Below are positions 962-18,286 of a stretch of DNA of 64,000 bases, one piece after another. Below the pieces are notes generated by a model that saw only the letters and a list, made by a program, of their open reading frames with translations, did not search any database and had not been told where the DNA came from. The translations under genes were made by a program, and so were the position numbers. Numbering within the stretch: position 1 is the first letter of the stretch; each line of letters starts with the position of its first letter. The DNA is from Escherichia coli (GTDB taxonomy: Bacteria > Pseudomonadota > Gammaproteobacteria > Enterobacterales > Enterobacteriaceae): NCBI RefSeq assembly GCF_003334305.1, contig NZ_QOWS01000001.1; one strand, given 5' to 3'.

Positions 962-3124
962 ATGACAGAAAAAGTAAAACAACATGCCGCTCCGGTAACG
1001 GGCAGTGATGAAATCGATATTGGTCGCCTGGTCGGCACCGTCATTGAAGCGCGCTGGTGGGTGATTGGCATCACCGCCGTATTTGCCCTCTGTGCCGTGG
1101 TTTACACTTTCTTCGCCACGCCGATTTATAGTGCCGACGCACTGGTACAAATCGAGCAAAACAGCGGCAATTCGTTAGTGCAGGACATTGGTTCGGCATT
1201 AGCCAACAAACCGCCAGCATCGGACGCCGAGATCCAGTTGATTCGTTCGCGCCTGGTGCTTGGTAAAACGGTGGACGATCTCGACCTCGATATTGCAGTG
1301 AGCAAAAACACGTTCCCGATTTTCGGGGCGGGCTGGGATCGCCTGATGGGGCGTCAGAACGAGACGGTGAAAGTGACTACCTTTAACCGCCCGAAAGAGA
1401 TGGCGGATCAGGTGTTTACACTTAATGTGCTGGACGATAAAAACTACACTCTGAGCAGCGATGGCGGCTTTAGCGCCCGTGGGCAAGCGGGCCAGATGCT
1501 GACAAAAGAAGGCGTCACGCTGATGGTTGAAGCCATTCACGCCCGCCCGGGCAGTGAGTTTACCGTCACCAAATACTCCACGCTGGGGATGATCAATCAA
1601 CTGCAAAACAGCCTGACGGTAACGGAGAACGGCAAAGACGCAGGCGTACTGAGCCTGACTTATACCGGTGAAGATCGCGAACAGATCCGCGACATTCTTA
1701 ACAGCATCGCCCGTAACTATCAGGAACAAAATATTGAGCGCAAATCGGCGGAAGCGTCGAAAAGCCTCGCTTTCCTTGCGCAACAGTTACCGGAAGTACG
1801 TAGCCGCCTCGATGTTGCCGAAAACAAACTGAATGCCTTCCGTCAGGATAAAGATTCTGTTGATCTGCCGCTGGAAGCGAAAGCGGTGCTCGATTCGATG
1901 GTGAACATCGACGCGCAGTTGAACGAACTGACCTTTAAAGAGGCGGAAATCTCCAAGCTGTACACCAAAGTTCACCCGGCGTACCGCACGCTGCTGGAGA
2001 AACGTCAGGCGCTGGAAGACGAAAAAGCCAAACTTAATGGTCGCGTAACGGCGATGCCGAAAACCCAGCAGGAAATTGTCCGTCTGACCCGCGATGTCGA
2101 GTCTGGTCAGCAGGTCTATATGCAACTGCTGAATAAAGAGCAGGAACTGAAAATCACCGAAGCCAGCACCGTCGGCGATGTGCGCATTGTTGACCCGGCA
2201 ATCACCCAGCCTGGCGTGTTAAAACCGAAGAAAGGGCTGATTATCCTCGGCGCGATTATCCTCGGCCTGATGCTCTCTATCGTGGGTGTGCTGCTGCGCT
2301 CGTTGTTTAATCGCGGCATCGAAAGCCCGCAGGTGCTGGAAGAACACGGTATCAGCGTCTATGCCAGCATCCCGCTGTCGGAATGGCAGAAAGCGCGCGA
2401 TAGCGTCAAAACCATCAAAGGGGTTAAACGCTATAAACAGAGTCAGCTACTGGCGGTAGGGAATCCAACCGATCTGGCGATTGAAGCCATCCGTAGTCTG
2501 CGTACCAGTCTGCACTTCGCGATGATACAGGCGCAGAACAATGTGTTGATGATGACCGGGGTTAGCCCGTCAATCGGTAAAACCTTTGTCTGCGCCAACC
2601 TGGCGGCGGTGATCAGCCAGACCAATAAACGGGTGTTGTTGATCGACTGCGATATGCGCAAAGGTTATACCCACGAGCTGTTGGGCACCAATAACGTTAA
2701 TGGCCTGTCGGAAATTCTGATTGGTCAGGGCGATATTACTACCGCTGCTAAACCGACCTCTATTGCCAAATTTGACCTGATCCCGCGCGGTCAGGTACCG
2801 CCAAATCCTTCTGAACTGTTGATGAGCGAACGCTTTGCCGAACTGGTGAACTGGGCGAGTAAAAACTACGACCTGGTGTTGATTGATACGCCGCCGATTC
2901 TGGCAGTGACCGATGCCGCAATTGTTGGTCGTCATGTCGGAACCACGTTAATGGTGGCGCGTTATGCGGTCAACACCTTGAAAGAAGTGGAAACCAGTCT
3001 GAGCCGCTTTGAGCAAAACGGTATTCCGGTGAAAGGGGTGATTCTGAACTCCATCTTCCGCCGCGCCAGCGCGTATCAGGATTATGGCTATTACGAATAC
3101 GAATATAAGTCGGATGCGAAATAA
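962..3124 (+). CDS. wzc: Tyrosine autokinase / polysaccharide co-polymerase
   Basis: ATG at 962 (MTEKVKQ...) within ORF 926..3124; Walker A GVSPSIGKT; C-terminal tyrosine-rich tail YQDYGYYEYEY. Confidence 0.95.
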   Translation: MTEKVKQHAAPVTGSDEIDIGRLVGTVIEARWWVIGITAVFALCAVVYTFFATPIYSADALVQIEQNSGNSLVQDIGSALANKPPASDAEIQLIRSRLVLGKTVDDLDLDIAVSKNTFPIFGAGWDRLMGRQNETVKVTTFNRPKEMADQVFTLNVLDDKNYTLSSDGGFSARGQAGQMLTKEGVTLMVEAIHARPGSEFTVTKYSTLGMINQLQNSLTVTENGKDAGVLSLTYTGEDREQIRDILNSIARNYQEQNIERKSAEASKSLAFLAQQLPEVRSRLDVAENKLNAFRQDKDSVDLPLEAKAVLDSMVNIDAQLNELTFKEAEISKLYTKVHPAYRTLLEKRQALEDEKAKLNGRVTAMPKTQQEIVRLTRDVESGQQVYMQLLNKEQELKITEASTVGDVRIVDPAITQPGVLKPKKGLIILGAIILGLMLSIVGVLLRSLFNRGIESPQVLEEHGISVYASIPLSEWQKARDSVKTIKGVKRYKQSQLLAVGNPTDLAIEAIRSLRTSLHFAMIQAQNNVLMMTGVSPSIGKTFVCANLAAVISQTNKRVLLIDCDMRKGYTHELLGTNNVNGLSEILIGQGDITTAAKPTSIAKFDLIPRGQVPPNPSELLMSERFAELVNWASKNYDLVLIDTPPILAVTDAAIVGRHVGTTLMVARYAVNTLKEVETSLSRFEQNGIPVKGVILNSIFRRASAYQDYGYYEYEYKSDAK

Positions 3125-3129
3125 CGACA

Positions 3130-3245
3130 TCCGCTGTCGGATGCGATGCTGACGCATCTTATCCGACCTACCTTCACGCCGCATCCGGCAAGCAAACCAG
3201 CTCCGTAGGCCGGATAAGGCGCTCACGCCGCATCCGGCAACAGAA
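3130..3245. repeat. REP/BIME cluster (repetitive extragenic palindromes)
   Basis: Tandem inverted copies of GCCGGATGCGGCG...CTTATCCGGCCTAC-like palindromes in wzc-wcaA intergenic. Confidence 0.7.
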
Positions 3246-3301
3246 CCCGTAAACAAGCTTATAAACCGGCAGAACATCTCGACACTCCGGGAGAACAACC
3301 T

Positions 3302-4141
3302 ATGAAAGACAATCCGCTGATTTCAATCTATATGCCGACCTGGAACCGCCAACAACTGGCGATTCGGGCGATAAAATCGGTCCTGCGCCAGGACTACAGC
3401 AACTGGGAGATGATCATCGTGGATGATTGCTCCACCTCCTGGGAACAACTGCAACAGTACGTCACTGCCCTCAACGATCCGCGTATTACCTACATTCACA
3501 ACGACATTAACAGCGGGGCGTGCGCGGTACGTAACCAGGCGATTATGCTGGCGCAAGGGGAATACATTACCGGGATCGATGACGATGATGAATGGACGCC
3601 CAACCGCCTGAGCGTCTTCCTCGCCCATAAACAGCAACTGGTCACTCACGCCTTTTTGTACGCTAACGACTACGTATGCCAGGGAGAAGTTTATTCCCAA
3701 CCAGCAAGCTTACCACTGTATCCCAAATCGCCGTACTCACGCCGCCTGTTCTATAAACGCAATATCATTGGCAATCAGGTTTTTACCTGGGCGTGGCGTT
3801 TCAAAGAGTGCTTGTTCGATACCGAACTGAAAGCAGCACAGGATTACGACATCTTCCTGCGGATGGTGGTGGAGTATGGCGAACCGTGGAAAGTGGAAGA
3901 GGCGACGCAGATCCTGCATATCAATCACGGTGAAATGCAGATCACCTCGTCACCGAAAAAATTCTCCGGGTACTTCCACTTTTACCGCAAGCACAAAGAT
4001 AAATTTGACCGTGCAAGCAAAAAATATCAGCTGTTTACCCTCTACCAGATCCGCAATAAACGTATGACCTGGCGCACTTTGCTGACGCTGCTGTCGGTGC
4101 GTAACGGCAAACGTCTGGCTGATGGTATTCGGGGGCGCTAA
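3302..4141 (+). CDS. wcaA: Colanic acid glycosyltransferase (GT2)
   Basis: 279 aa; GT2 N-terminal SIYMPTWNR...IVDDCS motif; synteny. Confidence 0.93.
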   Translation: MKDNPLISIYMPTWNRQQLAIRAIKSVLRQDYSNWEMIIVDDCSTSWEQLQQYVTALNDPRITYIHNDINSGACAVRNQAIMLAQGEYITGIDDDDEWTPNRLSVFLAHKQQLVTHAFLYANDYVCQGEVYSQPASLPLYPKSPYSRRLFYKRNIIGNQVFTWAWRFKECLFDTELKAAQDYDIFLRMVVEYGEPWKVEEATQILHINHGEMQITSSPKKFSGYFHFYRKHKDKFDRASKKYQLFTLYQIRNKRMTWRTLLTLLSVRNGKRLADGIRGR

Positions 4142-4143
4142 AG

Positions 4144-4632
4144 ATGCTGGAAGATCTGCGTGCCAACAGCTGGAGTTTACGCCCGTGCTGCATGGTTCTT
4201 GCCTATCGTGTTGCTCATTTTTGTTCGGTGTGGCGCAAAAAGAACGTCCTCAACAATCTGTGGGCGGCCCCGCTGCTGGTGCTGTATCGCATTATCACCG
4301 AATGCTTTTTCGGTTATGAAATCCAGGCCGCCGCGACCATTGGCCGCCGCTTTACTATCCATCACGGTTACGCCGTAGTGATCAATAAAAACGTGGTAGC
4401 GGGGGATGATTTCACCATTCGCCACGGCGTCACTATCGGCAATCGTGGTGCCGATAACATGGCATGTCCACACATTGGCAACGGCGTCGAACTCGGTGCC
4501 AACGTCATTATTCTTGGTGATATCACGCTTGGTAACAACGTCACCGTGGGCGCGGGCAGCGTGGTGCTCGACTCTGTCCCGGACAACGCGCTGGTGGTGG
4601 GAGAAAAAGCGCGAGTGAAGGTAATTAAATGA
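4144..4632 (+). CDS. wcaB: Colanic acid O-acetyltransferase (hexapeptide repeat)
   Basis: 162 aa; left-handed beta-helix hexapeptide repeats; synteny. Confidence 0.93.
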   Translation: MLEDLRANSWSLRPCCMVLAYRVAHFCSVWRKKNVLNNLWAAPLLVLYRIITECFFGYEIQAAATIGRRFTIHHGYAVVINKNVVAGDDFTIRHGVTIGNRGADNMACPHIGNGVELGANVIILGDITLGNNVTVGAGSVVLDSVPDNALVVGEKARVKVIK

Positions 4633-5846
4633 ATATTCTGCAATTTAATGTGCGACTGGCGGAAGGCGGGGCGGCAGGTGTGGCGTTAGATCTCCATCAG
4701 CGTGCGCTGCAACAGGGGCTGGCGTCACATTTTGTCTACGGCTACGGCAAAGGCGGCAAAGAGAGCGTCAGCCATCAGAACTATCCGCAGGTCATCAAAC
4801 ATACGCCGCGGATGACCGCGATGGCGAACATTGCGTTGTTTCGTCTGTTTAATCGCGATCTGTTCGGCAATTTCAATGAGTTATATCGCACCATTACTCG
4901 CACCCCGGGGCCGGTGGTTCTGCATTTTCATGTGCTGCACAGCTACTGGCTAAATCTTAAGAGCGTGGTGCGCTTTTGCGAAAAGGTGAAAAACCATAAA
5001 CCGGATGTCACTCTGGTCTGGACGCTGCACGACCACTGGAGCGTTACCGGGCGCTGCGCCTTTACCGACGGTTGTGAAGGCTGGAAAACGGGCTGCCAGA
5101 AATGCCCGACCTTAAATAACTATCCGCCGGTGAAGATTGATCGCGCGCACCAGCTGGTGGCGGGCAAACGCCAGTTATTTCGTGAGATGCTGGCGCTGGG
5201 CTGTCAGTTTATTTCCCCCAGCCAGCATGTGGCTGACGCTTTCAATAGTCTGTACGGGCCAGGGCGTTGCCGGATTATCAATAATGGTATTGATATGGCA
5301 ACCGAAGCGATTCTGGCGGACTTGCCTCCGGTGCGCGAAACCCAGGGCAAGCCGAAAATCGCGGTGGTGGCGCATGACCTGCGTTACGACGGCAAGACTA
5401 ACCAGCAACTGGTGCGTGAGATGATGGCGCTGGGCGACAAAATTGAACTGCATACCTTCGGTAAGTTCTCGCCGTTCACCGCTGGCAACGTGGTTAATCA
5501 CGGCTTTGAAACCGACAAACGTAAGCTGATGAGCGCGCTCAATCAGATGGATGCGCTGGTGTTCAGTTCTCGCGTCGATAACTACCCGCTGATTTTGTGT
5601 GAGGCGCTATCGATTGGCGTGCCGGTGATTGCCACCCATAGCGATGCGGCGCGTGAAGTGCTGCAAAAATCCGGCGGTAAAACCGTCAGTGAAGAAGAGG
5701 TGCTGCAACTGGTGCAGTTAAGCAAACCGGAAATCGCGCAGGCGATATTTGGTACCACGCTGGCTGAGTTCAGCCAACGCAGCCGCGCCGCCTACAGTGG
5801 ACAACAGATGCTGGAGGAGTATGTCAACTTCTATCAGAATCTGTAG
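4629..5846 (+). CDS. wcaC: Colanic acid glycosyltransferase (GT4-like)
   Basis: 405 aa; start overlaps wcaB stop; synteny. Confidence 0.93.
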   Translation: MNILQFNVRLAEGGAAGVALDLHQRALQQGLASHFVYGYGKGGKESVSHQNYPQVIKHTPRMTAMANIALFRLFNRDLFGNFNELYRTITRTPGPVVLHFHVLHSYWLNLKSVVRFCEKVKNHKPDVTLVWTLHDHWSVTGRCAFTDGCEGWKTGCQKCPTLNNYPPVKIDRAHQLVAGKRQLFREMLALGCQFISPSQHVADAFNSLYGPGRCRIINNGIDMATEAILADLPPVRETQGKPKIAVVAHDLRYDGKTNQQLVREMMALGDKIELHTFGKFSPFTAGNVVNHGFETDKRKLMSALNQMDALVFSSRVDNYPLILCEALSIGVPVIATHSDAAREVLQKSGGKTVSEEEVLQLVQLSKPEIAQAIFGTTLAEFSQRSRAAYSGQQMLEEYVNFYQNL

Positions 5847-7038
5847 CTACCTGCTGCTGCCGCTGATCTACCTGCTGGTTAACGTCAAAATCGCCCAGCT
5901 TGGCGAAAGTTTCCCCATCACTATCGTCACTTTTTTACCTGTCTTGTTACTGCTGTTTTTAGAACGCATCAGCGTTAAAAAATTGATGATTGCCTTAGGG
6001 ATTGGTGCGGGACTCACGGCGTTTAACTACCTGTTTGGTCAGTCGCTGGATGCCGGTAAATACGTCACTTCAACCATGCTGTTTGTCTATATTGTGATCA
6101 TTATTGGCATGGTGTGGAGTATTCGTTTTAAAACAATTTCGCCACACAACCATCGCAAGATATTACGTTTCTTTTATCTGGTGGTCGGGCTGGTGGTGGC
6201 GCTGGCGGCGGTGGAGATGGCGCAAATTATCCTCACCGGCGGCAGCAGTATTATGGAGTCGATTTCGAAATATCTGATTTACAGCAACAGCTATGTACTG
6301 AATTTCATTAAATTCGGCGGTAAGCGTACGACAGCACTTTATTTCGAACCGGCATTTTTCGCTCTGGCATTAATCTCAATTTGGCTCAGCATCAAACAGT
6401 TTGGTATCAAAACGCCTAAAACCGATGCTATGATTCTCGCAGGAATAATATTATCCGGATCGTTTTCAGGGGTTATGACCTTTATCCTGTTTTATTTGCT
6501 GGAGTGGGCATTCCAATATCTGAATAAAGAGGCGATTAAGAAAAAGTTGCCGTTAGCATTGATTTCTCTGGCTGTATTCCTGGTTGGTGTGGTAATCGCG
6601 TTTCCTTATATTTCCACCCGTCTGGGCGATTTAGGTACGGAAGGATCGTCATCGTATTATCGTATTGTCGGTCCGCTGGTAATGGTCGGTTATTCTTTGA
6701 CCCATATTGACGGTGTAGTCAGATTTGGCTCACTTTATGAATATGTCGCATCATTCGGAATATTTAACGGTGCGGATGTCGGAAAAACCATAGACAATGG
6801 TTTGTATCTGCTGATTATTTATTTTTCCTGGTTCGCAGTGTTTTTATCGCTGTGGTACATGGGGAAAGTGATAAAAATGATGATCAACGCTTTTGGTGAT
6901 AACCGCAATTTTCGCGTGCAATTATATCTTTTCACTCCGGTATCGCTGTTTTTTACCGGTTCGATATTTAGCCCGGAATATGCATTTTTAATCGTCTGTC
7001 CGTTTATTTTGCGAAAAGCGTTAAATATTACGAGGTAA
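5821..7038 (+). CDS. wcaD: Colanic acid polymerase (Wzy-type, multi-TM)
   Basis: Internal ATG at 5821 of ORF 5749..7038 gives 405 aa; highly hydrophobic multi-span protein; synteny. Confidence 0.9.
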
Positions 7039-7048
7039 GAATAAGAAC

Positions 7049-7795
7049 ATGTTGCTTAGCATAATCACTGTCGCGTTTCGTAACCTCGAAGGGATAGTCA
7101 AAACACATGCCTCGCTGGCGCATCTGGCGCAGGCGGAAGATATCAGCTTCGAATGGATTGTTGTCGATGGCGGTTCCAACGACGGCACCCGTGAGTATCT
7201 GGAAAATCTCAATGGTATCTTTAACCTACGCTTTGTCAGCGAGCCAGATAACGGTATCTACGACGCCATGAACAAAGGCATTGCGATGGCACAAGGCAAG
7301 TTCGCGTTGTTTCTCAACTCGGGCGATATTTTTCATCAGGATGCCGCAAATTTTGTCCGTAAGTTAAAAATGCAAAAAGATAACGTGATGATCACCGGCG
7401 ATGCGCTGCTGGATTTTGGCGACGGGCATAAAATTAAGCGTAGTGCTAAACCGGGTTGGTATATTTATCACAGCCTGCCCGCCAGCCATCAGGCGATATT
7501 TTTCCCGGTATCCGGCTTGAAAAAATGGCGTTATGACCTGGAATATAAAGTATCTTCCGATTACGCGCTGGCGGCTAAAATGTATAAAGCCGGTTATGCA
7601 TTTAAAAAACTCAATGGCCTGGTGTCTGAATTTTCCATGGGTGGGGTATCAACCACCAATAATATGGAATTGTGTGCTGACGCCAAAAAAGTCCAACGGC
7701 AAATATTACATGTGCCTGGCTTCTGGGCAGAATTATCCTGGCATTTACGCCAACGTACTACCTCAAAGACGAAAGCCTTATATAACAAAAGCTGA
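7049..7795 (+). CDS. wcaE: Colanic acid glycosyltransferase (GT2)
   Basis: 248 aa; synteny. Confidence 0.92.
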
Positions 7796-7810
7796 ATATA
7801 AGGGAAAACG

Positions 7811-8359
7811 ATGCAAGATTTAAGCGGTTTCTCGGTGCCGAAAGGGTTCCGGGGCGGCAACGCTATTAAAGTGCAATTATGGTGGGCAGTACAGGCAACA
7901 ATATTTGCCTGGTCGCCACAAGTATTGTATCGCTGGCGGGCTTTTTTATTACGTTTATTCGGCGCAAAAATAGGAAAAAACGTAGTTATTCGTCCGTCAG
8001 TAAAAATTACCTATCCGTGGAAATTAACCTTAGGTGATTACGCGTGGGTCGGCGATGACGTCAATTTATATACCCTCGGTGAAATAACCATTGGCGCACA
8101 TTCGGTGATATCGCAAAAAAGTTATTTATGCACCGGTAGCCACGACCATGCAAGTCAACATTTCACCATTAACGCCACGCCTATTGTGATTGGCGAGAAA
8201 TGCTGGCTGGCAACCGATGTCTTTGTTGCCCCAGGCGTCACAATCGGCGACGGCACCGTCGTGGGTGCACGAAGCAGTGTTTTTAAATCGCTTCCGGCAA
8301 ATGTGGTTTGCCGGGGGAATCCCGCAGTGGTGATACGCGAACGCGTTGAAACTGAATAA
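7811..8359 (+). CDS. wcaF: Colanic acid O-acetyltransferase (hexapeptide repeat)
   Basis: 182 aa; hexapeptide repeats; synteny. Confidence 0.92.
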   Translation: MQDLSGFSVPKGFRGGNAIKVQLWWAVQATIFAWSPQVLYRWRAFLLRLFGAKIGKNVVIRPSVKITYPWKLTLGDYAWVGDDVNLYTLGEITIGAHSVISQKSYLCTGSHDHASQHFTINATPIVIGEKCWLATDVFVAPGVTIGDGTVVGARSSVFKSLPANVVCRGNPAVVIRERVETE

Positions 8360-8384
8360 ATTCAAAAATACAGAGGAATAAGAC

Positions 8385-9506
8385 ATGTCAAAAGTCGCTC
8401 TCATCACCGGTGTAACCGGACAAGACGGTTCTTACCTGGCAGAGTTTCTGCTGGAAAAAGGTTACGAGGTGCATGGTATTAAGCGTCGCGCATCGTCATT
8501 CAACACCGAGCGCGTGGATCACATTTATCAGGATCCGCACACCTGCAACCCGAAATTCCATCTGCATTATGGCGACCTGAGTGATACCTCCAACCTGACG
8601 CGCATTTTGCGTGAAGTACAGCCGGATGAAGTGTACAACCTGGGCGCAATGAGCCACGTTGCGGTTTCTTTTGAGTCACCGGAATATACCGCAGACGTCG
8701 ATGCGATGGGTACGCTGCGCCTGCTCGAGGCGATCCGCTTCCTCGGTCTGGAAAAGAAAACCCGTTTCTATCAGGCTTCCACCTCTGAACTGTACGGTCT
8801 GGTGCAGGAAATTCCGCAGAAAGAAACCACGCCGTTCTACCCGCGATCTCCGTATGCGGTCGCCAAACTGTACGCCTACTGGATCACCGTTAACTACCGC
8901 GAATCCTACGGCATGTACGCTTGTAACGGAATTCTCTTCAACCATGAATCCCCGCGCCGCGGCGAAACCTTCGTTACCCGCAAAATCACCCGCGCAATCG
9001 CCAACATCGCCCAGGGGCTGGAGTCGTGCCTGTACCTCGGCAATATGGATTCCCTGCGTGACTGGGGCCACGCCAAAGACTACGTAAAAATGCAGTGGAT
9101 GATGCTGCAACAGGAACAGCCGGAAGATTTCGTTATCGCGACCGGCGTTCAGTACTCCGTGCGTCAGTTCGTGGAAATGGCAGCGGCACAGCTGGGCATC
9201 AAACTGCGCTTTGAAGGCACGGGTGTTGAAGAGAAGGGCATTGTGGTTTCCGTCACCGGGCATGACGCGCCGGGCGTTAAACCGGGTGATGTGATTATCG
9301 CCGTTGATCCGCGTTACTTCCGTCCGGCTGAAGTTGAAACGCTGCTCGGCGACCCGACCAAAGCGCACGAAAAACTGGGCTGGAAACCGGAAATCACCCT
9401 CAGAGAGATGGTGTCTGAAATGGTGGCTAATGACCTCGAAGCGGCGAAAAAACACTCTCTGCTGAAATCTCACGGCTACGACGTGGCGATCGCGCTGGAG
9501 TCATAA
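8385..9506 (+). CDS. gmd: GDP-mannose 4,6-dehydratase
   Basis: 373 aa; N-terminal [10 protein letters not shown] Rossmann motif; protein recognised. Confidence 0.96.
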
Positions 9507-9508
9507 GC

Positions 9509-10474
9509 ATGAGTAGACAACGCATTTTTATCGCTGGCCATCGCGGAATGGTCGGTTCTGCCATCAGGCGGCAGCTCGAACAGCGCGGTGATGTGGAACT
9601 GGTATTACGCACCCGCGACGAGCTGAACCTGCTGGACAGCCGCGCGGTGCATGATTTCTTTGCCAGCGAACGCATTGACCAGGTCTATCTGGCGGCGGCG
9701 AAAGTGGGCGGCATTGTTGCCAACAACACCTATCCGGCGGATTTCATCTACCAGAACATGATGATTGAGAGCAACATCATTCACGCCGCGCATCAGAACG
9801 ACGTGAACAAACTGCTGTTTCTCGGATCGTCCTGCATCTACCCGAAACTGGCAAAACAGCCGATGGCAGAAAGCGAGCTGTTGCAGGGCACGCTGGAGCC
9901 GACTAACGAGCCTTATGCCATTGCCAAAATCGCCGGGATCAAACTGTGCGAATCTTACAACCGCCAGTATGGACGCGATTACCGCTCGGTCATGCCAACC
10001 AACCTGTACGGGCCACACGACAACTTCCATCCGAGTAACTCGCATGTGATCCCAGCATTGCTGCGTCGCTTCCACGAGGCGACGGCACAGAATGCACCGG
10101 ACGTGGTGGTGTGGGGCAGCGGTACACCGATGCGTGAATTTCTGCACGTCGATGATATGGCGGCGGCAAGCATTCATGTGATGGAGCTGGCGCACGAAGT
10201 CTGGCTGGAAAACACCCAGCCGATGTTGTCGCACATTAACGTCGGTACGGGCGTTGACTGCACTATCCGCGAGCTGGCGCAAACCATCGCCAAAGTGGTG
10301 GGTTACAAAGGTCGGGTGGTTTTTGATGCCAGTAAACCGGATGGTACGCCGCGCAAACTGCTGGATGTGACGCGCCTGCATCAGCTTGGCTGGTATCACG
10401 AAATCTCACTGGAAGCGGGGCTTGCCAGCACTTACCAGTGGTTCCTTGAGAATCAAGACCGCTTTCGGGGGTAA
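9509..10474 (+). CDS. fcl: GDP-L-fucose synthase
   Basis: 321 aa; SDR-type GHRGMVG motif; follows gmd. Confidence 0.96.
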
Positions 10475-10956
10475 TGATGTTTTTACGTCAGGAAGACTTT
10501 GCCACGGTAGTGCGCTCCACCCCGCTTGTCTCTCTCGACTTTATTGTCGAGAACAGTCGCGGCGAGTTTCTGCTTGGCAAAAGAACCAACCGCCCGGCGC
10601 AGGGTTACTGGTTTGTGCCGGGAGGGCGCGTGCAGAAAGACGAAACGCTGGAAGCCGCATTTGAGCGGCTGACGATGGCGGAACTGGGGCTGCGTCTGCC
10701 GATAACAGCAGGCCAGTTTTACGGTGTCTGGCAGCACTTTTATGACGATAACTTCTCCGGCATGGATTTCACCACTCACTATGTGGTGCTCGGTTTTCGC
10801 TTCAGAGTATCGGAAGAAGAGCTGTTACTGCCGGATGAGCAGCATGACGATTACCGCTGGCTGACGCCGGATGCACTGCTCGCCAGTGACAATGTTCACG
10901 CTAACAGCCGCGCCTATTTTCTCGCTGAGAAGCGTGCCGGAGTACCCGGATTATGA
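10474..10956 (+). CDS. gmm: GDP-mannose mannosyl hydrolase (Nudix)
   Basis: 160 aa; Nudix fold protein; synteny. Confidence 0.92.
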
Positions 10957-12176
10957 AAATACTGGTCTACGGCATTAACTACTCGCCGGAGTTAACCGGC
11001 ATCGGCAAATACACCGGCGAGATGGTGGAATGGCTGGCGGCACAAGGTCATGAGGTGCGGGTCATTACCGCACCGCCTTACTACCCGCAGTGGCAGGTGG
11101 GTGAGAACTATTCCGCCTGGCGGTACAAACGAGAAGAGGGGGCCGCCACGGTGTGGCGCTGCCCGCTGTACGTGCCAAAACAGCCGAGCACCCTGAAACG
11201 CCTGTTGCATCTCAGCAGTTTTGCCGTCAGCAGTTTCTTTCCTCTGATGGCGCAACGTCGCTGGAAGCCGGATCGCATTATTGGCGTGGTGCCAACGCTG
11301 TTTTGCACGCCGGGAATGCGCCTGCTGGCGAAACTCTCTGGCGCGCGTACCGTGCTGCATATTCAGGATTACGAAGTGGACGCCATGCTGGGGCTGGGCC
11401 TTGCCGGAAAAGGCAAAGGCGGCAAAGTGGCACAGCTGGCGACGGCGTTCGAACGTAGCGGACTGCATAACGTCGATAACGTCTCCACGATTTCGCGTTC
11501 GATGATGAATAAAGCCATCGAAAAAGGCGTGGCGGCAGAAAACGTCATCTTCTTCCCCAACTGGTCAGAAATTGCCCGTTTTCAGCATGTTGCAGATGCC
11601 GATGTTGATGCCCTTCGTAACCAGCTTGGCCTGCCGGATAACAAAAAAATCATTCTTTACTCCGGCAATATTGGTGAAAAGCAGGGGCTGGAAAACGTTA
11701 TTGAAGCTGCCGATCGCCTGCGCGATGAACCGCTGATTTTTGCCATTGTCGGGCAGGGCGGCGGCAAAGCGCGGCTGGAAAAAATGGCGCAGCAGCGTGG
11801 ACTGCGCAACATGCAATTTTTTCCGCTGCAATCGTATGACGCTTTACCCGCACTGCTGAAGATGGGCGATTGCCATCTGGTGGTGCAAAAACGCGGCGCG
11901 GCAGATGCCGTATTGCCGTCGAAACTGACCAATATTCTGGCGGTAGGCGGTAACGCGGTGATTACTGCAGAAGCCCACACAGAACTGGGACAGCTTTGCG
12001 AAACCTTTCCGGGCATTGCGGTTTGCGTAGAGCCGGAATCGGTCGAGGCGCTGGTGGCGGGGATCCGTCAGGCGCTCCTGCTGCCCAAACACAACACGGT
12101 GGCACGTGAATATGCCGAACGCACTCTCGATAAAGAGAACGTGTTACGTCAATTTATAAATGATATTCGGGGATAA
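10953..12176 (+). CDS. wcaI: Colanic acid glycosyltransferase (GT4)
   Basis: 407 aa; synteny. Confidence 0.92.
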
Positions 12177-12178
12177 TT

Positions 12179-13615
12179 ATGGCGCAGTCGAAACTCTATC
12201 CAGTTGTGATGGCAGGTGGCTCCGGTAGCCGCTTATGGCCGCTTTCCCGCGTACTTTACCCCAAGCAGTTTTTATGCCTGAAAGGCGATCTCACCATGCT
12301 GCAAACCACCATCTGCCGCCTGAACGGCGTGGAGTGCGAAAGCCCGGTGGTGATTTGCAATGAGCAGCACCGCTTTATTGTCGCGGAACAGCTGCGCCAA
12401 CTGAACAAACTCACCGAGAACATTATTCTCGAACCGGCAGGGCGTAATACTGCACCTGCCATTGCGCTGGCGGCGCTGGCGGCAAAACGTCATAGCCCGG
12501 AGAGCGACCCGTTAATGCTGGTATTGGCGGCGGATCATGTGATTGCCGATGAAGACGCGTTCCGTGCCGCCGTGCGTAATGCCATGCCATATGCCGAAGC
12601 GGGCAAGCTGGTGACCTTCGGCATTGTGCCGGATCTACCAGAAACCGGTTATGGCTATATTCGTCGCGGTGAAGTGTCTGCGGGTGAGCAGGATACGGTG
12701 GCCTTTGAAGTGGCGCAGTTTGTCGAAAAACCAAATCTGGAAACCGCGCAGGCCTATGTGGCAAGCGGCGAATATTACTGGAACAGCGGCATGTTCCTGT
12801 TCCGCGCCGGACGCTATCTCGAAGAACTGAAAAAATATCGCCCGGATATTCTCGATGCCTGCGAAAAAGCGATGAGCGCCGTCGATCCGGATCTCGATTT
12901 TATTCGCGTGGATGAAGAAGCGTTTCTCGCCTGCCCGGAAGAGTCGGTGGATTACGCGGTCATGGAACGTACGGCAGATGCCGTTGTGGTACCGATGGAT
13001 GCGGGCTGGAGCGATGTCGGTTCCTGGTCTTCATTATGGGAGATCAGCGCCCACACCGCCGAGGGCAACGTTTGCCACGGCGATGTAATTAATCACAAAA
13101 CTGAAAACAGCTATGTGTACGCCGAATCTGGCCTGGTCACCACCGTCGGGGTGAAAGATCTGGTGGTGGTGCAGACCAAAGATGCGGTGCTGATTGCCGA
13201 CCGTAACGCGGTGCAGGATGTGAAAAAAGTGGTCGAGCAGATCAAAGCCGATGGTCGCCATGAGCATCGGGTGCATCGCGAAGTCTATCGCCCGTGGGGC
13301 AAATATGACTCTATCGACGCAGGCGACCGCTACCAGGTGAAACGCATCACCGTGAAACCGGGCGAGGGCTTGTCGGTACAGATGCACCATCACCGCGCGG
13401 AACACTGGGTGGTTGTCGCGGGAACGGCAAAAGTCACTATTGACGGTGATATCAAACTGCTTGGTGAAAACGAGTCCATTTATATTCCGCTGGGGGCGAC
13501 GCACTGCCTGGAAAACCCGGGGAAAATTCCGCTCGATTTAATTGAAGTGCGCTCCGGCTCTTATCTCGAAGAGGATGATGTGGTGCGCTTCGCGGATCGC
13601 TACGGACGGGTGTAA
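12179..13615 (+). CDS. cpsB: Mannose-1-phosphate guanylyltransferase (colanic acid copy)
   Basis: 478 aa; N-terminal [11 protein letters not shown] nucleotidyltransferase motif and C-terminal cupin; synteny. Confidence 0.95.
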
Positions 13616-13619
13616 ACGT

Positions 13620-13735
<116 letters not shown>

Positions 13736-13807
13736 ATGTAAATAACGACAAAAACAAAATTGGCCGCTTCGGTCAGGGCCAACTATTGCCTGAAAAAGGG
13801 TAACGAC

Positions 13808-15178
13808 ATGAAAAAATTAACCTGCTTTAAAGCCTATGATATTCGTGGAAAATTAGGCGAAGAACTGAATGAAGATATTGCCTGGCGCATTGGTCGTGCC
13901 TATGGCGAATTTCTCAAACCGAAAACCATTGTGTTAGGCGGTGATGTCCGTCTCACCAGCGAAACCTTAAAACTGGCGCTGGCAAAAGGTTTACAGGATG
14001 CGGGCGTTGATGTGCTGGATATCGGCATGTCCGGCACCGAAGAGATCTATTTCGCCACGTTCCATCTCGGCGTGGATGGCGGTATTGAAGTTACTGCCAG
14101 CCATAATCCGATGGATTACAACGGCATGAAACTGGTGCGCGAAGGGGCTCGCCCGATCAGCGGCGATACCGGACTGCGCGATGTCCAGCGTCTGGCAGAA
14201 GCCAACGACTTTCCTCCCGTTGATGCAACCAAACGCGGTCGCTATCAGCAAATCAATCTGCGTGACGCTTACGTTGATCACCTGTTCGGTTATATCAACG
14301 TCAAAAACCTCACGCCGCTCAAGCTGGTGATCAACTCCGGGAACGGCGCAGCGGGTCCAGTAGTGGACGCCATTGAAGCCCGCTTTAAAGCCCTCGGCGC
14401 GCCCGTGGAATTGATCAAAGAGCACAACACGCCGGACGGTAATTTCCCCAACGGTATTCCTAACCCGCTACTGCCAGAATGCCGCGACGACACCCGCAAT
14501 GCGGTCATCAAACACGGCGCGGATATGGGCATTGCCTTTGACGGTGATTTTGATCGCTGCTTCCTGTTTGACGAAAAAGGGCAGTTTATTGAGGGCTACT
14601 ACATTGTCGGCCTGCTGGCAGAAGCATTCCTCGAAAAAAATCCCGGCGCGAAGATCATCCACGATCCACGTCTCTCCTGGAACACTGTTGATGTGGTGAC
14701 CGCCGCGGGCGGCACGCCGGTAATGTCGAAAACCGGACACGCCTTTATTAAAGAACGTATGCGCAAGGAAGACGCCATCTACGGTGGCGAAATGAGTGCC
14801 CACCATTACTTCCGTGATTTCGCTTACTGCGACAGCGGCATGATCCCGTGGCTGCTGGTAGCCGAACTGGTGTGCCTGAAAGGAAAAACGCTGGGCGAAC
14901 TGGTGCGCGACCGGATGGCGGCATTCCCGGCAAGCGGTGAGATCAACAGCAAACTGGCGCAACCCGTTGAGGCGATTAACCGCGTGGAACAGCATTTTAG
15001 CCGTGAGGCTCTGGCGGTGGATCGCACCGATGGCATCAGCATGACCTTTGCCGACTGGCGCTTTAATCTGCGCACCTCCAATACCGAACCGGTGGTGCGC
15101 CTGAATGTGGAATCGCGCGGTGATGTGCCACTGATGGAAGCGCGAACGCGAACTCTGCTGGCGTTGCTGAACGAGTAA
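13808..15178 (+). CDS. cpsG: Phosphomannomutase (colanic acid copy)
   Basis: ATG at 13808 ([14 protein letters not shown]) inside ORF 13760..15178, 456 aa; phosphohexomutase TASHNP active-site motif. Confidence 0.95.
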
Positions 15179-15232
15179 TGTCGGATCTTCCCTTACCCCA
15201 TTGCGGGTAAGGGGCTAATAACAGGAACAACG

Positions 15233-16627
15233 ATGACAAATCTAAAAAAGCGCGAGCGAGCGAAAACCAATGCATCGTTAATCTCTATGGTGCAACGCTT
15301 TTCAGATATCACCATCATGTTTGCCGGACTATGGCTGGTTTGCGAAGTGAGCGGACTGTCATTCCTCTACATGCACCTGTTGGTGGCGCTGATTACGCTG
15401 GTGGTGTTCCAGATGCTGGGCGGCATCACCGATTTTTATCGCTCATGGCGCGGTGTTCGGGCAGCGACAGAATTTGCCCTGTTGCTACAAAACTGGACCT
15501 TAAGCGTGATTTTCAGCGCCGGACTGGTGGCGTTCAACAATGATTTCGACACGCAACTGAAAATCTGGCTGGCGTGGTATGGGCTGACCAGCATCGGACT
15601 GGTGGTTTGCCGTTCATGTATTCGCATTGGGGCGGGCTGGCTGCGTAATCATGGCTATAACAAGCGCATGGTCGCGGTGGCGGGGGATTTAGCCGCCGGA
15701 CAAATGCTGATGGAGAGCTTCCGTAATCAGCCGTGGTTAGGGTTTGAAGTGGTGGGCGTTTACCACGACCCGAAACCGGGCGGCGTTTCTAACGACTGGG
15801 CGGGCAATCTGCAACAGCTGGTCGAGGATGCTAAAGCGGGTAAGATTCATAACGTCTATATCGCGATGCAAATGTGCGACGGCGCGCGAGTGAAAAAACT
15901 GGTCCATCAACTGGCGGACACCACCTGTTCGGTGCTGCTGATCCCCGATGTCTTTACCTTCAACATTCTCCATTCACGTCTCGAAGAGATGAACGGCGTT
16001 CCGGTGGTGCCGCTGTATGACACGCCGCTTTCCGGGGTTAACCGCCTGCTAAAACGTGCGGAAGACATTGTGCTGGCGACGCTGATCTTGCTGCTGATCT
16101 CCCCGGTGCTGTGCTGTATTGCGCTGGCGGTGAAACTCAGTTCACCAGGGCCGGTTATTTTCCGCCAGACTCGCTACGGCATGGATGGCAAGCCGATCAA
16201 AGTGTGGAAGTTCCGTTCCATGAAAGTGATGGAGAACGACAAAGTGGTGACCCAGGCGACGCAGAACGATCCGCGCGTCACTAAAGTGGGGAACTTTCTG
16301 CGCCGCACCTCGCTGGATGAACTGCCGCAGTTTATCAATGTGCTGACCGGCGGGATGTCGATTGTCGGTCCGCGTCCGCACGCGGTAGCGCATAACGAAC
16401 AGTATCGCCAGCTCATTGAAGGCTACATGCTGCGCCACAAAGTGAAACCGGGCATTACCGGCTGGGCGCAGATTAATGGCTGGCGCGGCGAAACCGACAC
16501 GCTGGAGAAAATGGAAAAACGCGTCGAGTTCGACCTTGAGTACATCCGCGAATGGAGCGTCTGGTTCGATATCAAAATCGTTTTCCTGACGGTATTCAAA
16601 GGTTTCGTTAACAAAGCGGCATATTGA
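15233..16627 (+). CDS. wcaJ: Undecaprenyl-phosphate glucose-1-phosphate transferase (initiating transferase)
   Basis: 464 aa; N-terminal TM segments plus C-terminal sugar-phosphate transferase domain; synteny. Confidence 0.94.
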   Translation: MTNLKKRERAKTNASLISMVQRFSDITIMFAGLWLVCEVSGLSFLYMHLLVALITLVVFQMLGGITDFYRSWRGVRAATEFALLLQNWTLSVIFSAGLVAFNNDFDTQLKIWLAWYGLTSIGLVVCRSCIRIGAGWLRNHGYNKRMVAVAGDLAAGQMLMESFRNQPWLGFEVVGVYHDPKPGGVSNDWAGNLQQLVEDAKAGKIHNVYIAMQMCDGARVKKLVHQLADTTCSVLLIPDVFTFNILHSRLEEMNGVPVVPLYDTPLSGVNRLLKRAEDIVLATLILLLISPVLCCIALAVKLSSPGPVIFRQTRYGMDGKPIKVWKFRSMKVMENDKVVTQATQNDPRVTKVGNFLRRTSLDELPQFINVLTGGMSIVGPRPHAVAHNEQYRQLIEGYMLRHKVKPGITGWAQINGWRGETDTLEKMEKRVEFDLEYIREWSVWFDIKIVFLTVFKGFVNKAAY

Positions 16628-16628
16628 T

Positions 16629-18107
16629 ATGAGCTTACGTGAAAAAACCATCAGCGGCGCGAAGTGGTCGGCGATTGCCACGGTGATCATCATCGGCCTC
16701 GGGCTGGTGCAGATGACCGTGCTGGCGCGGATTATCGACAACCACCAGTTCGGCCTGCTGACTGTGTCGCTGGTGATTATCGCGCTGGCAGATACGCTTT
16801 CTGACTTCGGTATCGCTAACTCGATTATTCAGCGAAAAGAAATCAGCCACCTTGAACTCACCACGCTGTACTGGCTGAACGTCGGGCTGGGGCTTGTGGT
16901 GTGCGTGGCGGTGTTTTTGTTGAGTGATGCCATTGGCGACGTGCTGAATAACCCGGACCTGGCCCCGTTGATTAAAACATTGTCGCTGGCGTTTGTGGTG
17001 ATCCCCCACGGGCAACAGTTCCGCGCGTTGATGCAGAAGGAGCTGGAGTTCAACAAAATCGGCATGATCGAAACCAGCGCGGTACTGGCGGGCTTCACTT
17101 TTACGGTGGTTAGCGCCCATTTCTGGCCGCTGGCGATGACCGCGATCCTCGGTTATCTGGTCAATAGCGCGGTAAGAACGCTGCTGTTTGGCTACTTTGG
17201 CCGCAAAATTTATCGCCCCGGTCTGCACTTCTCGCTGGCGTCGGTGGCACCGAACTTACGCTTTGGTGCCTGGCTGACGGCGGACAGCATCATCAACTAT
17301 CTCAACACCAACCTTTCAACGCTGGTGCTGGCGCGTATTCTCGGCGCGGGCGTGGCAGGGGGATACAACCTGGCGTACAACGTGGCCGTTGTGCCGCCGA
17401 TGAAGCTGAACCCAATCATCACCCGCGTGTTGTTTCCGGCGTTTGCCAAAATTCAGGACGACACCGAAAAGCTGCGCGTCAACTTCTACAAGCTGCTGTC
17501 GGTGGTGGGGATTATCAACTTTCCGGCGCTGCTCGGGCTGATGGTGGTGTCAAATAACTTTGTACCGCTGGTATTTGGTGAGAAGTGGAGCAGCATTATT
17601 CCGGTGCTGCAATTGCTGTGTATTGTGGGTCTGCTGCGCTCCGTGGGTAACCCGATTGGTTCGCTGCTGATGGCGAAAGCGCGGGTCGATATCAGCTTTA
17701 AATTCAACGTATTCAAAACATTTCTGTTTATTCCGGCGATTGTTATTGGTGGGCAGATGGCCGGCGCAATCGGCGTCACGCTTGGCTTCCTGCTGGTGCA
17801 GATTATCAACACCATTCTGAGTTACTTCGTGATGATTAAACCGGTTCTTGGTTCCAGTTATCGCCAGTACATCCTGAGTTTGTGGCTGCCGTTTTATCTC
17901 TCGCTGCCGACGCTGGTGGTCAGTTATGCGCTGGGTATTGTGCTGAAAGGGCAACTGGCGCTGGGGATGCTGCTGGCGGTGCAAATAGCCGCGGGCGTGC
18001 TGGCGTTTGTGGTGATGATTGTGCTGTCGCGCCATCCGCTGGTGGTGGAAGTGAAGCGTCAGTTTTGTCGCAGCGAAAAAATGAAAATGCTTTTACGGGC
18101 GGGGTGA
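16629..18107 (+). CDS. wzxC: Colanic acid repeat-unit flippase
   Basis: 492 aa multi-TM polysaccharide transporter-family protein; synteny. Confidence 0.93.
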   Translation: MSLREKTISGAKWSAIATVIIIGLGLVQMTVLARIIDNHQFGLLTVSLVIIALADTLSDFGIANSIIQRKEISHLELTTLYWLNVGLGLVVCVAVFLLSDAIGDVLNNPDLAPLIKTLSLAFVVIPHGQQFRALMQKELEFNKIGMIETSAVLAGFTFTVVSAHFWPLAMTAILGYLVNSAVRTLLFGYFGRKIYRPGLHFSLASVAPNLRFGAWLTADSIINYLNTNLSTLVLARILGAGVAGGYNLAYNVAVVPPMKLNPIITRVLFPAFAKIQDDTEKLRVNFYKLLSVVGIINFPALLGLMVVSNNFVPLVFGEKWSSIIPVLQLLCIVGLLRSVGNPIGSLLMAKARVDISFKFNVFKTFLFIPAIVIGGQMAGAIGVTLGFLLVQIINTILSYFVMIKPVLGSSYRQYILSLWLPFYLSLPTLVVSYALGIVLKGQLALGMLLAVQIAAGVLAFVVMIVLSRHPLVVEVKRQFCRSEKMKMLLRAG

Positions 18108-18124
18108 GTTGCTGTTTTCGGTTC

Positions 18125-18235
18125 CGACAACGGTTGCCGGGTGCAGCGTAAAACGCCTTATCCATCCTACGGTTCTGTGCTCGGGACCTGTAGGCCTGAT
18201 AAGACGCGCCAGCGTCGCATCAGGCAAAAAGCGGC
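18125..18235. repeat. REP/BIME cluster
   Basis: REP-like palindromes (GCGTAAAACGCCTTATCC...; GTAGGCCTGATAAGACGCG...GCATCAGGC) in wzxC-wcaK intergenic. Confidence 0.7.
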
Positions 18236-18286
18236 AACGAACACAACAAACACAGCCTCACCTGGCATCAAATTTATGAGGAAAAA

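What the first reader, a model, noticed from the sequence alone, without database searches (positions are those of the whole stretch)
3130..18235. Three REP/BIME blocks punctuate the colanic acid operon at the same gene boundaries as in K-12-like genomes
REP clusters after wzc, cpsB and wzxC can act as mRNA stabilisers or partial terminators and could shape differential expression within the long operon. They are also recombination hotspots.
Basis: partly seen in the sequence, partly recalled or inferred. Interest (0 to 1): 0.2.

Follow-up and report, generated by a model that had tools for sequence, protein, structure and literature searches.

The report
REP/BIME repeats inside colanic acid operon
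The three palindromic blocks are ordinary, already described E. coli REP/BIME repeats in the few roomy gene junctions of the colanic acid operon; their copy number varies widely between strains, and any effect on expression is probably modest and is untested here.

Summary
The window is an E. coli chromosome segment (wza…wcaM, galF, O-antigen, his). Six full REPs and two half-REPs lie in exactly three gaps: wzc|wcaA (3136-3238), cpsB|cpsG (13617-13717) and wzxC|wcaK (18136-18225). Only one other REP occurs in the 64 kb.

All six have the CTAC/GTAG foot and the stem mismatch, and they fold strongly as RNA (z -3.4 to -6.4). None has a U-tract or an IHF site.

"Same as K-12" holds for position only. 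K-12 has 1 REP, a 13-nt remnant, and 4 REPs at the three sites. Across E. coli genomes the arrays run 1-2, 0-6 and 0-12 REPs, in 88-nt and 96-nt tandem units, and empty-site alleles exist.

These sites, their indels and a link to recombination junctions were published by Iguchi et al. 2011.

In about 70 other Enterobacteriaceae species the same junctions, plus cpsG|wcaJ, are the expanded ones. They usually hold strongly structured palindromes, but from different repeat families.

A role as decay barrier or weak Rho-dependent attenuator is plausible from REP literature. It is untested at this locus. K-12 array data show at most a twofold step at wzc|wcaA and none at wzxC|wcaK.

Verdict: known and ordinary; low interest.

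The parts
3136..3171 (+). REP 1a: 36-nt atypical REP (GTCGGATGCGATGC...GCATCTTATCCGACCTAC). It starts 11 nt after the wzc stop codon (3122-3124).
   Evidence: nhmmer E 8e-9; inverted repeat I4; sequence. The same REP is present in the APEC O18 allele and absent in K-12.
3173..3189 (-). Half-REP (Y head, ttcacgccgcatccggc). It is the left copy of a 49-nt partial duplication.
   Evidence: nhmmer partial hit at model positions 1-17; comparison of the window, APEC O18 and K-12 alleles.
3205..3238 (-). REP 1b: canonical Y-type REP. It is the counterpart of the single REP in K-12's wzc|wcaA gap.
   Evidence: 0 mismatches to the degenerate consensus; nhmmer E 4e-10; K-12 sequence.
13617..13629 (-). 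Half Z2 REP (cgtcgcatcaggc) starting 1 nt after the cpsB stop codon. It is the partial extra copy of the 88-nt BIME unit and is all that remains in K-12.
   Evidence: the direct repeat with 13705-13717 defines the 88-nt period (TRF on the D7 and MEI003 alleles).
13637..13670 (+). REP 2a: Y-like REP (GTCGGATGCGGCGTGAACGCCTTATCCGACCTAC).
   Evidence: 1 mismatch to the consensus; nhmmer E 3.5e-10; hairpin in the fold.
13682..13717 (-). REP 2b: Z2-type REP. Together with 2a it forms a BIME-2-like unit with an 11-nt linker.
   Evidence: 0 mismatches; nhmmer E 2.8e-9; fold.
18136..18170 (+). REP 3a: degenerate Y REP (GCCGGGTGCAGCGTAAAACGCCTTATCCATCCTAC) with a weakened stem.
   Evidence: 3 mismatches; nhmmer E 1.4e-8; the K-12 counterpart is intact.
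18190..18225 (-). REP 3b: Z2-type REP. With 3a it forms one 96-nt BIME-2 unit; other strains carry 0 to 6 units.
   Evidence: 0 mismatches; nhmmer E 7e-10; array sizes.
15189..15214 (+). Non-REP 10-bp hairpin (CCCTTACCCC-attgcg-GGGTAAGGGG) in the cpsG|wcaJ gap.
   Evidence: Fold -17.1 kcal/mol, z -2.2. The same junction holds a 135-bp GC-rich palindromic element in strains 2015C-4944 and D7. It holds a >=9-bp hairpin in 70 of 73 other species.

Best explanation
**What they are (shown).** The three blocks are ordinary E. coli REP/BIME elements. These are short, RAYT-associated, non-autonomous palindromic repeats.
- Blocks 2 and 3 are BIME-2-type Y/Z2 pairs.
- Block 1 is an atypical composite.
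- They sit in the only junctions of the colanic acid operon that are neither overlapping nor tightly spaced.
- They are gained, lost and amplified there in whole units.

**How they probably work (inferred).**
- They are co-transcribed in the long Rcs-activated, RfaH-assisted wza-to-wcaM mRNA and fold into very stable hairpins.
- The hairpins most likely block 3'-to-5' exonucleases, so the upstream segments (wza-wzb-wzc, then ...cpsB, then ...wzxC) outlast the downstream ones.
- They probably also cause weak, partly Rho-dependent attenuation, which RfaH largely overrides.
- In this window's allele the first REP starts 11 nt after the wzc stop codon. That is close enough for the reported ribosome-stalling effect of REPs lying fewer than 16 nt from a stop.
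- Effects are expected to be modest and to differ between alleles.
For: **Identity.**
- Sequence and profile matches, the CTAC foot and the stem mismatch.
- High copy number: the REP-containing queries match a median of 10-17 places per E. coli genome.
- Y+Z2 inverted pairs in tandem 88-nt and 96-nt units whose number varies between strains. This fits the BIME-2 definition in PMC3333891.

**Site permissiveness.**
- In 10 E. coli strains every other junction is 28 bp or less, or overlapping, apart from two strain-specific repeat insertions.

**Function, general.**
- REP325 acts as both stabiliser and attenuator, and the upstream bias is seen genome-wide.
- The rule that REPs fewer than 16 nt from a stop lower translation is reported in PMC12306157, citing Liang 2015.

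**Function, locus-specific hints.**
- About a 1 log2 step occurs at wzc|wcaA in K-12.
- A JUMPstart lies upstream of K-12 wza.
- A stem-loop attenuator is predicted after wzc in Klebsiella cps clusters (PMC3438125).
- In about 70 other species, wzc|wcaA, cpsB|cpsG and cpsG|wcaJ are the expanded junctions. They fold far better than shuffles: z<=-2 in 42 of 55, 36 of 72 and 62 of 72 gaps.
Against: - There is no transcript or half-life measurement for this locus.
- The K-12 arrays show no step across the four-REP wzxC|wcaK array, only a gradual decline along the operon.
- Natural alleles with no REP exist at cpsB|cpsG and wzxC|wcaK: strain LR-60, and K-12 at cpsB|cpsG.
- Copy number ranges from 0 to 12 REPs, which argues against strong selection on content.
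- None of the blocks has a U-tract.
- REP 3a is degenerate.
- REP effects are reported to be highly context-dependent, with no general half-life effect.
Confidence: 0.6

Rival explanations
1. **Neutral (selfish) occupancy.** The REPs have no operon-specific role. They accumulate at these three junctions because insertions elsewhere would break overlapping or translationally coupled genes. Array length drifts by slippage or RAYT-mediated recombination.
For: - Empty-site and remnant alleles occur in healthy natural isolates.
- Arrays range from 0 to 12 REPs.
- Other repeat families occupy the same or neighbouring gaps in other strains. BL21 has a GC-rich palindrome at wzxC|wcaK, B2 strains have an ERIC-like element at wcaD|wcaE, and O26 and D7 have a 135-bp element at cpsG|wcaJ.
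- No induction step is seen at wzxC|wcaK in K-12.
- Whenever any junction is expanded in another species, it is filled by structured repeats, including at wcaF|gmd.
Against: - wzc|wcaA and cpsG|wcaJ carry a strongly structured element in most genera despite non-homologous occupants. This looks more like repeated retention than drift.
- The general REP literature shows measurable effects on neighbouring genes.
Confidence: 0.3
2. **DNA-level role.** The BIME-2 arrays act as DNA gyrase binding sites or supercoiling relief points, or as other nucleoid-protein sites, within a 20-kb operon that is very heavily transcribed when induced.
For: - REP-related sequences are cited as binding sites for DNA gyrase, DNA polymerase I and IHF (PMC3158064 discussion).
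- Blocks 2 and 3 are the BIME-2 type. That BIME-2 is the gyrase-associated class is my recollection and was not checked here.
- The K-12 array matches the Rfam naRNA4 model.
Against: - No IHF consensus occurs in any block.
- The 2026 REP325 study found no measurable nucleoid compaction and no REP-REP contacts.
- Alleles lacking REPs exist.
- Nothing in the sequence can test gyrase binding.
Confidence: 0.07
3. **Recombination junctions.** The main significance of the REPs is as breakpoints for exchange of the adjacent O-antigen region.
For: - Iguchi et al. 2011 found that some REP indel positions coincide with changes in sequence similarity at wcaK-wzxC and hisI-wzz.
- Block 1 of the window is a mosaic of the B2-type and K-12-type alleles, joined at the shared 'cacgccgcatccggca'.
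Against: - The per-gene identity of the window against nine strains shows a fine-grained mosaic, with no sharp step at the three REP sites.
- Rows that looked like junctions at REP edges turned out to be longer arrays.
- Iguchi et al. themselves call the cases few.
Confidence: 0.1

Closest known systems
E. coli REP (palindromic unit) / BIME-2 elements
   Same: - 34-36-nt imperfect palindromes with a CTAC/GTAG foot and a stem mismatch.
- Y and Z2 types in inverted pairs with short linkers.
- Tandem units whose number varies between strains.
- Strictly extragenic.
   Different: Nothing essential. Block 1 is an atypical composite: one 36-nt variant REP, one half-REP and one Y REP. REP 3a is degenerate.
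REPs at wcaA-wzc, cpsG-cpsB and wcaK-wzxC described by Iguchi et al. 2011 (PLoS One 6:e23250)
   Same: The same three intergenic sites, the same indel polymorphism and the same suggestion of a link with recombination.
   Different: That study compared six O157 strains. Here the range is extended to 0-12 REPs across about 5,400 genomes, and the sites are compared across genera.
REP325 (yjdM|yjdN), a 12-unit Y/Z2 array
   Same: An alternating Y/Z2 array between tandem genes of one operon. The B2-type wzxC|wcaK allele also has 12 REPs.
   Different: REP325's stabiliser and attenuator activity has been measured. Nothing has been measured for the colanic acid arrays, and this operon is RfaH-dependent.
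Stem-loop attenuator downstream of wzc in group 1 capsule (cps) clusters of Klebsiella and E. coli K30
   Same: A structured element directly after wzc. It separates the export genes from the glycosyltransferase genes in a JUMPstart/RfaH-controlled operon.
   Different: That element is described as a Rho-independent-type stem-loop. The colanic acid blocks here are REPs without a U-tract. Sequence homology between the two was not compared.

Membership tests
REP / palindromic unit (E. coli Y, Z1, Z2) | 30-40-nt imperfect palindrome | tested here: met
   Six units of 34-36 nt; inverted repeats; hairpins in the folds.
REP / palindromic unit (E. coli Y, Z1, Z2) | Conserved GTAG tetranucleotide at the foot (CTAC on the other strand) | tested here: met
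   All six full units end in CCTAC. The requirement is described in PMC3333891.
REP / palindromic unit (E. coli Y, Z1, Z2) | Conserved mismatch or bulge in the stem | tested here: met
   Internal unpaired positions occur in each REP hairpin in the MFE structures. REP 3a has additional mismatches.
REP / palindromic unit (E. coli Y, Z1, Z2) | Sequence match to the Y or Z2 consensus | tested here: met
   0, 0, 0, 1 and 3 mismatches to a degenerate consensus for five units. The sixth unit (3136-3171) is atypical but scores E 8e-9.
REP / palindromic unit (E. coli Y, Z1, Z2) | Extragenic and present in many copies per genome | tested here: met
   All units lie between annotated CDSs. The REP-containing queries match a median of 10-17 places per E. 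coli genome.
BIME-2 | Y and Z2 in inverse orientation with a short linker, in tandem copies whose number varies between strains | tested here: met
   Blocks 2 and 3 are Y(+) Z2(-) with 11-nt and 19-nt linkers. TRF gives periods of 88 and 96 nt. Units number 0-3 at cpsB|cpsG and 0-6 at wzxC|wcaK. Block 1 does not fit and is atypical.
BIME-1 | Z1 plus Y with a long L linker carrying an IHF site | tested here: not met
   No Z1-type unit and no WATCAANNNNTTR match in any block.
Intrinsic (Rho-independent) terminator | GC-rich hairpin followed by a U-tract on the transcribed strand | tested here: not met
   No + strand terminator-like site falls in any of the three gaps.
REP as mRNA decay barrier / partial Rho-dependent attenuator | REP-dependent change in upstream mRNA stability or downstream read-through | not testable with these tools
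   Only indirect data exist: K-12 array log2 ratios and the general REP literature.
REP as translational down-regulator (Liang 2015 rule) | REP begins fewer than 16 nt after the stop codon of the upstream gene | tested here: met
   Met for wzc only: the stop ends at 3124 and the REP starts at 3136, leaving 11 nt. It is not met for cpsB (21 nt to the first full REP) or wzxC (28 nt). The rule is as reported in PMC12306157. The effect itself is untested.
RAYT (TnpA-REP) mobilised element | Cleavage and recombination by TnpA-REP | not testable with these tools
   rayT is annotated in E. coli genomes (row H197). In vitro activity on BIMEs is described.

The most novel reading that the evidence does not exclude
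**Proposed reading.** Structured 'punctuation' at fixed junctions of the colanic acid operon (wzc|wcaA, cpsB|cpsG, cpsG|wcaJ) is maintained by selection across Enterobacteriaceae, even though the occupant is swapped between unrelated repeat families (REP, GC-rich CCCTCTCCC/GGGAGAGGG palindromes, simple hairpins).

**Within E. coli.** REP alleles would act as heritable dials:
- 0-12 REPs before wcaKLM.
- A REP 11 nt versus 25 nt after the wzc stop codon.

These dials would set the ratio of export machinery to late modification enzymes, and so the amount or the pyruvylation and polymerisation of colanic acid in different lineages (for example 8-12 REPs in B2 strains).
Probability: 0.2. Interest if true: 0.4.

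Novelty: already known. Interest (0 to 1): 0.12.

Why it matters
It matters little on its own. REPs at these three sites, their indels and the possible recombination link were published in 2011, and their likely mRNA-level roles are textbook REP biology.

The useful additions are descriptive:
- The three sites are copy-number hypervariable across E. coli, from empty to 12 REPs.
- K-12 is not representative at any of them.
- The same junctions are the structured ones across genera, with different occupants.

If REP number does tune expression, these natural alleles form a ready-made series for testing how REPs act inside an RfaH-dependent operon.

Tried and rejected
- **Fixed-loop pattern.** My first REP pattern, with a fixed 5-nt loop, found nothing. 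This was a pattern error. A variable-loop fuzzy regex and an nhmmer profile replaced it.
- **Apparent junctions at REP edges.** Rows where similarity began exactly at the REP block (query 202-595 and 228-583) looked like recombination junctions. Fetching two of them showed intact flanking genes and simply longer arrays of 6 REPs. That reading was dropped.
- **Identity steps.** The per-gene identity of the window against nine strains showed no sharp step at the REP sites.
- **Narrow profile.** The E. coli REP profile found only 14 hits in 80 loci from other species. It is too narrow for other genera's REPs, so I switched to structure-based measures.
- **Lenient hairpin criterion.** The >=9-bp hairpin criterion is lenient, because shuffles reach about 50%. 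MFE z-scores were therefore added.
- **Heuristic labels.** The family labels 'REP-like' and 'boxC-like' are heuristic. The boxC and ERIC names rest on my memory and could not be confirmed in the library.
- **Papers not held.** Stevenson 1996 and Liang 2015 could not be read.
- **Motifs not found.** No IHF sites and no intrinsic terminators.
Full report
**1. What the window is.**
The ORF map and a megablast of 3000-18400 against 5,426 complete E. coli genomes identify the locus. Several strains, including H15 and A7, are 100% identical. The region is the colanic acid cluster. The window continues through galF, an O-antigen cluster with a JUMPstart at 24737-24775, and the his leader.

With the K-12 annotation as a guide, the genes flanking the three blocks are:
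- wzc, ending at 3124, and wcaA, starting at 3302.
- cpsB, ending at 13615, and cpsG, starting at 13808.
- wzxC, ending at 18107, and wcaK, starting at 18287.

**2.
Reading the three gaps shows textbook REP sequence. A variable-loop consensus search and an nhmmer profile give the following:
- Six full REPs: 3136-3171(+), 3205-3238(-), 13637-13670(+), 13682-13717(-), 18136-18170(+) and 18190-18225(-).
- Two half-REPs: 3173-3189 and 13617-13629.

Only one further REP, at 34615-34650, occurs in the rest of the 64 kb. All six full units end in CCTAC. This is the complement of the GTAG foot that TnpA-REP requires (PMC3333891).

The units fold as hairpins with an internal mismatch. The three blocks fold at -54.2, -66.4 and -47.1 kcal/mol. 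Their z-scores are -5.1, -6.4 and -3.4, and none of 200 shuffles folds as well.

Blocks 2 and 3 are Y(+)/Z2(-) pairs with short linkers, which is the BIME-2 architecture. Block 1 is an atypical composite. No block has an IHF consensus or a hairpin followed by a U-tract on the sense strand.

**3. 'Same boundaries as K-12' is true for position only.**

| Junction | K-12 MG1655 | Window |
|---|---|---|
| wzc\|wcaA | 92-bp gap, one Y REP | 177-bp gap, two REPs plus a half-REP |
| cpsB\|cpsG | 104-bp gap, only the 13-nt half-REP cgtcgcatcaggc | 192-bp gap, one Y/Z2 unit |
| wzxC\|wcaK | 275-bp gap, four REPs | 179-bp gap, two REPs |

The K-12 remnant at cpsB|cpsG is exactly what a deletion of one 88-nt unit between its flanking direct repeats would leave.

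**4. The sites are copy-number hypervariable.**
I sampled 60 evenly spaced rows from about 5,400 genomes for each junction. I also fetched eleven further strains. The results are tabulated.

wzc|wcaA:
- A 177-bp window-type allele, in about 13 of 60 rows.
- A 128-bp B2-type allele carrying the stop-proximal REP plus a half-REP, in about 10 of 60.
- A 92-95-bp K-12-type allele, in about 30 of 60.
- The window allele equals the B2-type allele plus a 49-nt segment that matches the K-12-type allele. The two are joined at the shared 'cacgccgcatccggca'.

cpsB|cpsG:
- 0 REPs (K-12 remnant type, in about 9 of 60 rows).
- 0 REPs, an unrelated 101-bp allele in strain LR-60 (about 5 of 60).
- 2 REPs (the majority, as in the window).
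- 4 REPs (strain D7).
- 6 REPs (strain MEI003).
- The period is 88 nt.

wzxC|wcaK:
- An empty 72-bp site (strain LR-60).
- Arrays of 1, 2, 4, 6, 8, 10 and 12 REPs, with a period of 96-97 nt.
- In BL21, a different GC-rich palindromic element instead of REPs.
- Against the empty allele, the window's insert (18133-18232) is flanked by the imperfect 7-nt direct repeat GACAACG/GGCAACG.

This behaviour is what the BIME-2 definition describes.

**5. Prior knowledge.**
Iguchi et al. 2011 (PMC3158064) reported the following:
- REPs lie precisely at wcaA-wzc, cpsG-cpsB and wcaK-wzxC.
- REPs are inserted or deleted between strains.
- Some indel positions coincide with junctions of sequence similarity.
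- REPs may help drive O-antigen exchange.

**6. Why these junctions.**
In ten E. coli strains every other junction of the operon overlaps or is 28 bp or shorter. The exceptions are two strain-specific insertions:
- An 83-bp ERIC-like element at wcaD|wcaE in B2 strains.
- A 135-bp GC-rich palindromic element at cpsG|wcaJ in strains 2015C-4944 (O26) and D7.

I then fetched colanic acid clusters from 80 other species or MAGs with WcaI as query. I measured all junctions.

| Junction | Median gap (bp) | Gaps >=60 bp | Gaps >=40 bp with MFE z<=-2 |
|---|---|---|---|
| wzc\|wcaA | 109 | 55 of 64 | 42 of 55 |
| cpsB\|cpsG | 110 | 67 of 73 | 36 of 72 |
| cpsG\|wcaJ | 69 | 43 of 73 | 62 of 72 |
| wzxC\|wcaK | 30 | 18 of 72 | 16 of 24 |

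- The remaining junctions stay tight.
- Counts of hairpins with at least 9 bp exceed every dinucleotide shuffle at the first three sites. They do not at the control junctions.
- The occupants are not homologous. Escherichia, Citrobacter, Salmonella and Enterobacter mostly carry REP-type units.
- Many other genera carry one to five copies of a CCCTCTCCC…GGGAGAGGG palindrome.
- C. freundii and Atlantibacter carry simple hairpins.
- So the positions are conserved and the content is not. The species are phylogenetically related, so these counts are descriptive and not independent tests.

**7. Mechanism.**
Shown:
- The elements are REP/BIME units.
- They lie inside a cluster that is co-induced from wza to wcaM. 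In K-12 the 60-min log2 ratios run 7.1 (wza) to 2.7 (wcaM).
- They would form very stable RNA hairpins.

Inferred from REP biology:
- Hairpins block 3' exonucleases and protect upstream mRNA.
- Some REPs attenuate transcription in a partly Rho-dependent way.

Locus-specific hints:
- There is a drop of about 1 log2 from wzc (6.72) to wcaA (5.70) in K-12.
- RfaH is stated to be needed for the genes downstream of wzc (PMC3673037).
- A JUMPstart lies upstream of K-12 wza.
- A stem-loop attenuator is predicted after wzc in Klebsiella cps clusters.

Evidence against a strong role:
- There is no step across K-12's four-REP wzxC|wcaK array (4.45 versus 4.45), and none at cpsB|cpsG, where K-12 lacks REPs.
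- These values are fold-changes and not abundances, so the evidence is weak in either direction.
- REP-free natural alleles exist, and copy number is very variable.

An allele-specific prediction:
- In the window-type and B2-type alleles, a REP begins 11 nt after the wzc stop codon. In K-12 it begins about 25 nt after.
- REPs fewer than 16 nt from a stop are reported to lower translation of the upstream gene (PMC12306157, citing Liang 2015).
- I put about 0.6 on the combined statement of firm identity plus a modest mRNA-level effect. I put about 0.3 on purely neutral occupancy of the only permissive gaps.

**8. Verdict.**
This is a correct but ordinary observation of known elements at known sites. 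The interpretation repeats general REP biology. It is neither shown nor excluded at this locus. Interest is low. The natural allele series, and the pattern of conserved positions with swapped occupants across genera, are the only aspects worth a follow-up experiment.

Noticed in passing
window 13754-13803 (+): A match to the Rfam algC RNA motif (RF02929, 77 bits against a gathering score of 33.8) lies immediately upstream of cpsG (phosphomannomutase), downstream of the BIME in the same gap. K-12 has the same match (L001 14985-15034). The motif sequence is visibly conserved in the cpsB|cpsG gaps of other genera.
   Followed up: partly
window 15189-15214 (+); L007 and L009 cpsG|wcaJ gaps: The cpsG|wcaJ gap holds a 10-bp non-REP hairpin in the window. 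Strains 2015C-4944 (O26) and D7 instead hold a 135-bp GC-rich palindromic element (CCCCCTCACCC…GGGGTGAGGGG) there. In 70 of 73 other species this junction has a hairpin of at least 9 bp.
   Followed up: partly
L002 (APEC O18) 5562-5641 and L006, wcaD|wcaE gap: B2-type strains carry an 83-bp insertion between wcaD and wcaE. It resembles a short (centre-deleted) ERIC/IRU element; that identification is from memory. The window and K-12 have a 10-bp gap at this junction.
   Followed up: no
L005 (BL21(DE3)) 16701-16861, wzxC|wcaK gap: BL21 and about 3 of 60 sampled genomes have no REPs at wzxC|wcaK. They carry a different 161-bp sequence with a CCCCCTCACCCTAACCCTCTCCCC…GGGGCGAGGGG palindrome. The site has therefore been occupied by two unrelated repeat families within E. 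coli.
   Followed up: no
window 18126-18132 and 18233-18239; L004 (LR-60) 16701-16772: The empty-site allele of wzxC|wcaK (72 bp) shows that the window's 100-nt BIME insert is flanked by an imperfect 7-nt direct repeat (GACAACG / GGCAACG). This could be a target-site-like duplication, or the microhomology used for a precise deletion.
   Followed up: partly
window 34575-34690: The only other REP in the window (34615-34650, degenerate) lies just after a terminator-like hairpin with a T-run (about 34584-34612), downstream of the 326-aa ORF at 33581-34561. A second, decayed REP-like sequence (gtaggcacgataa…) follows it.
   Followed up: no
L001 10525-10595 (K-12 wzxC|wcaK array): K-12's four-REP array matches the Rfam naRNA4 model (RF02564, 72.9 bits) on the strand antisense to the operon. 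The window's two-REP allele does not reach the gathering score.
   Followed up: no
window 24737-24775, 54898-55021 (-), 57760-57834: The expected Rfam matches elsewhere in the window are JUMPstart upstream of the O-antigen cluster, the His operon leader, and the sRNA STnc240.
   Followed up: no
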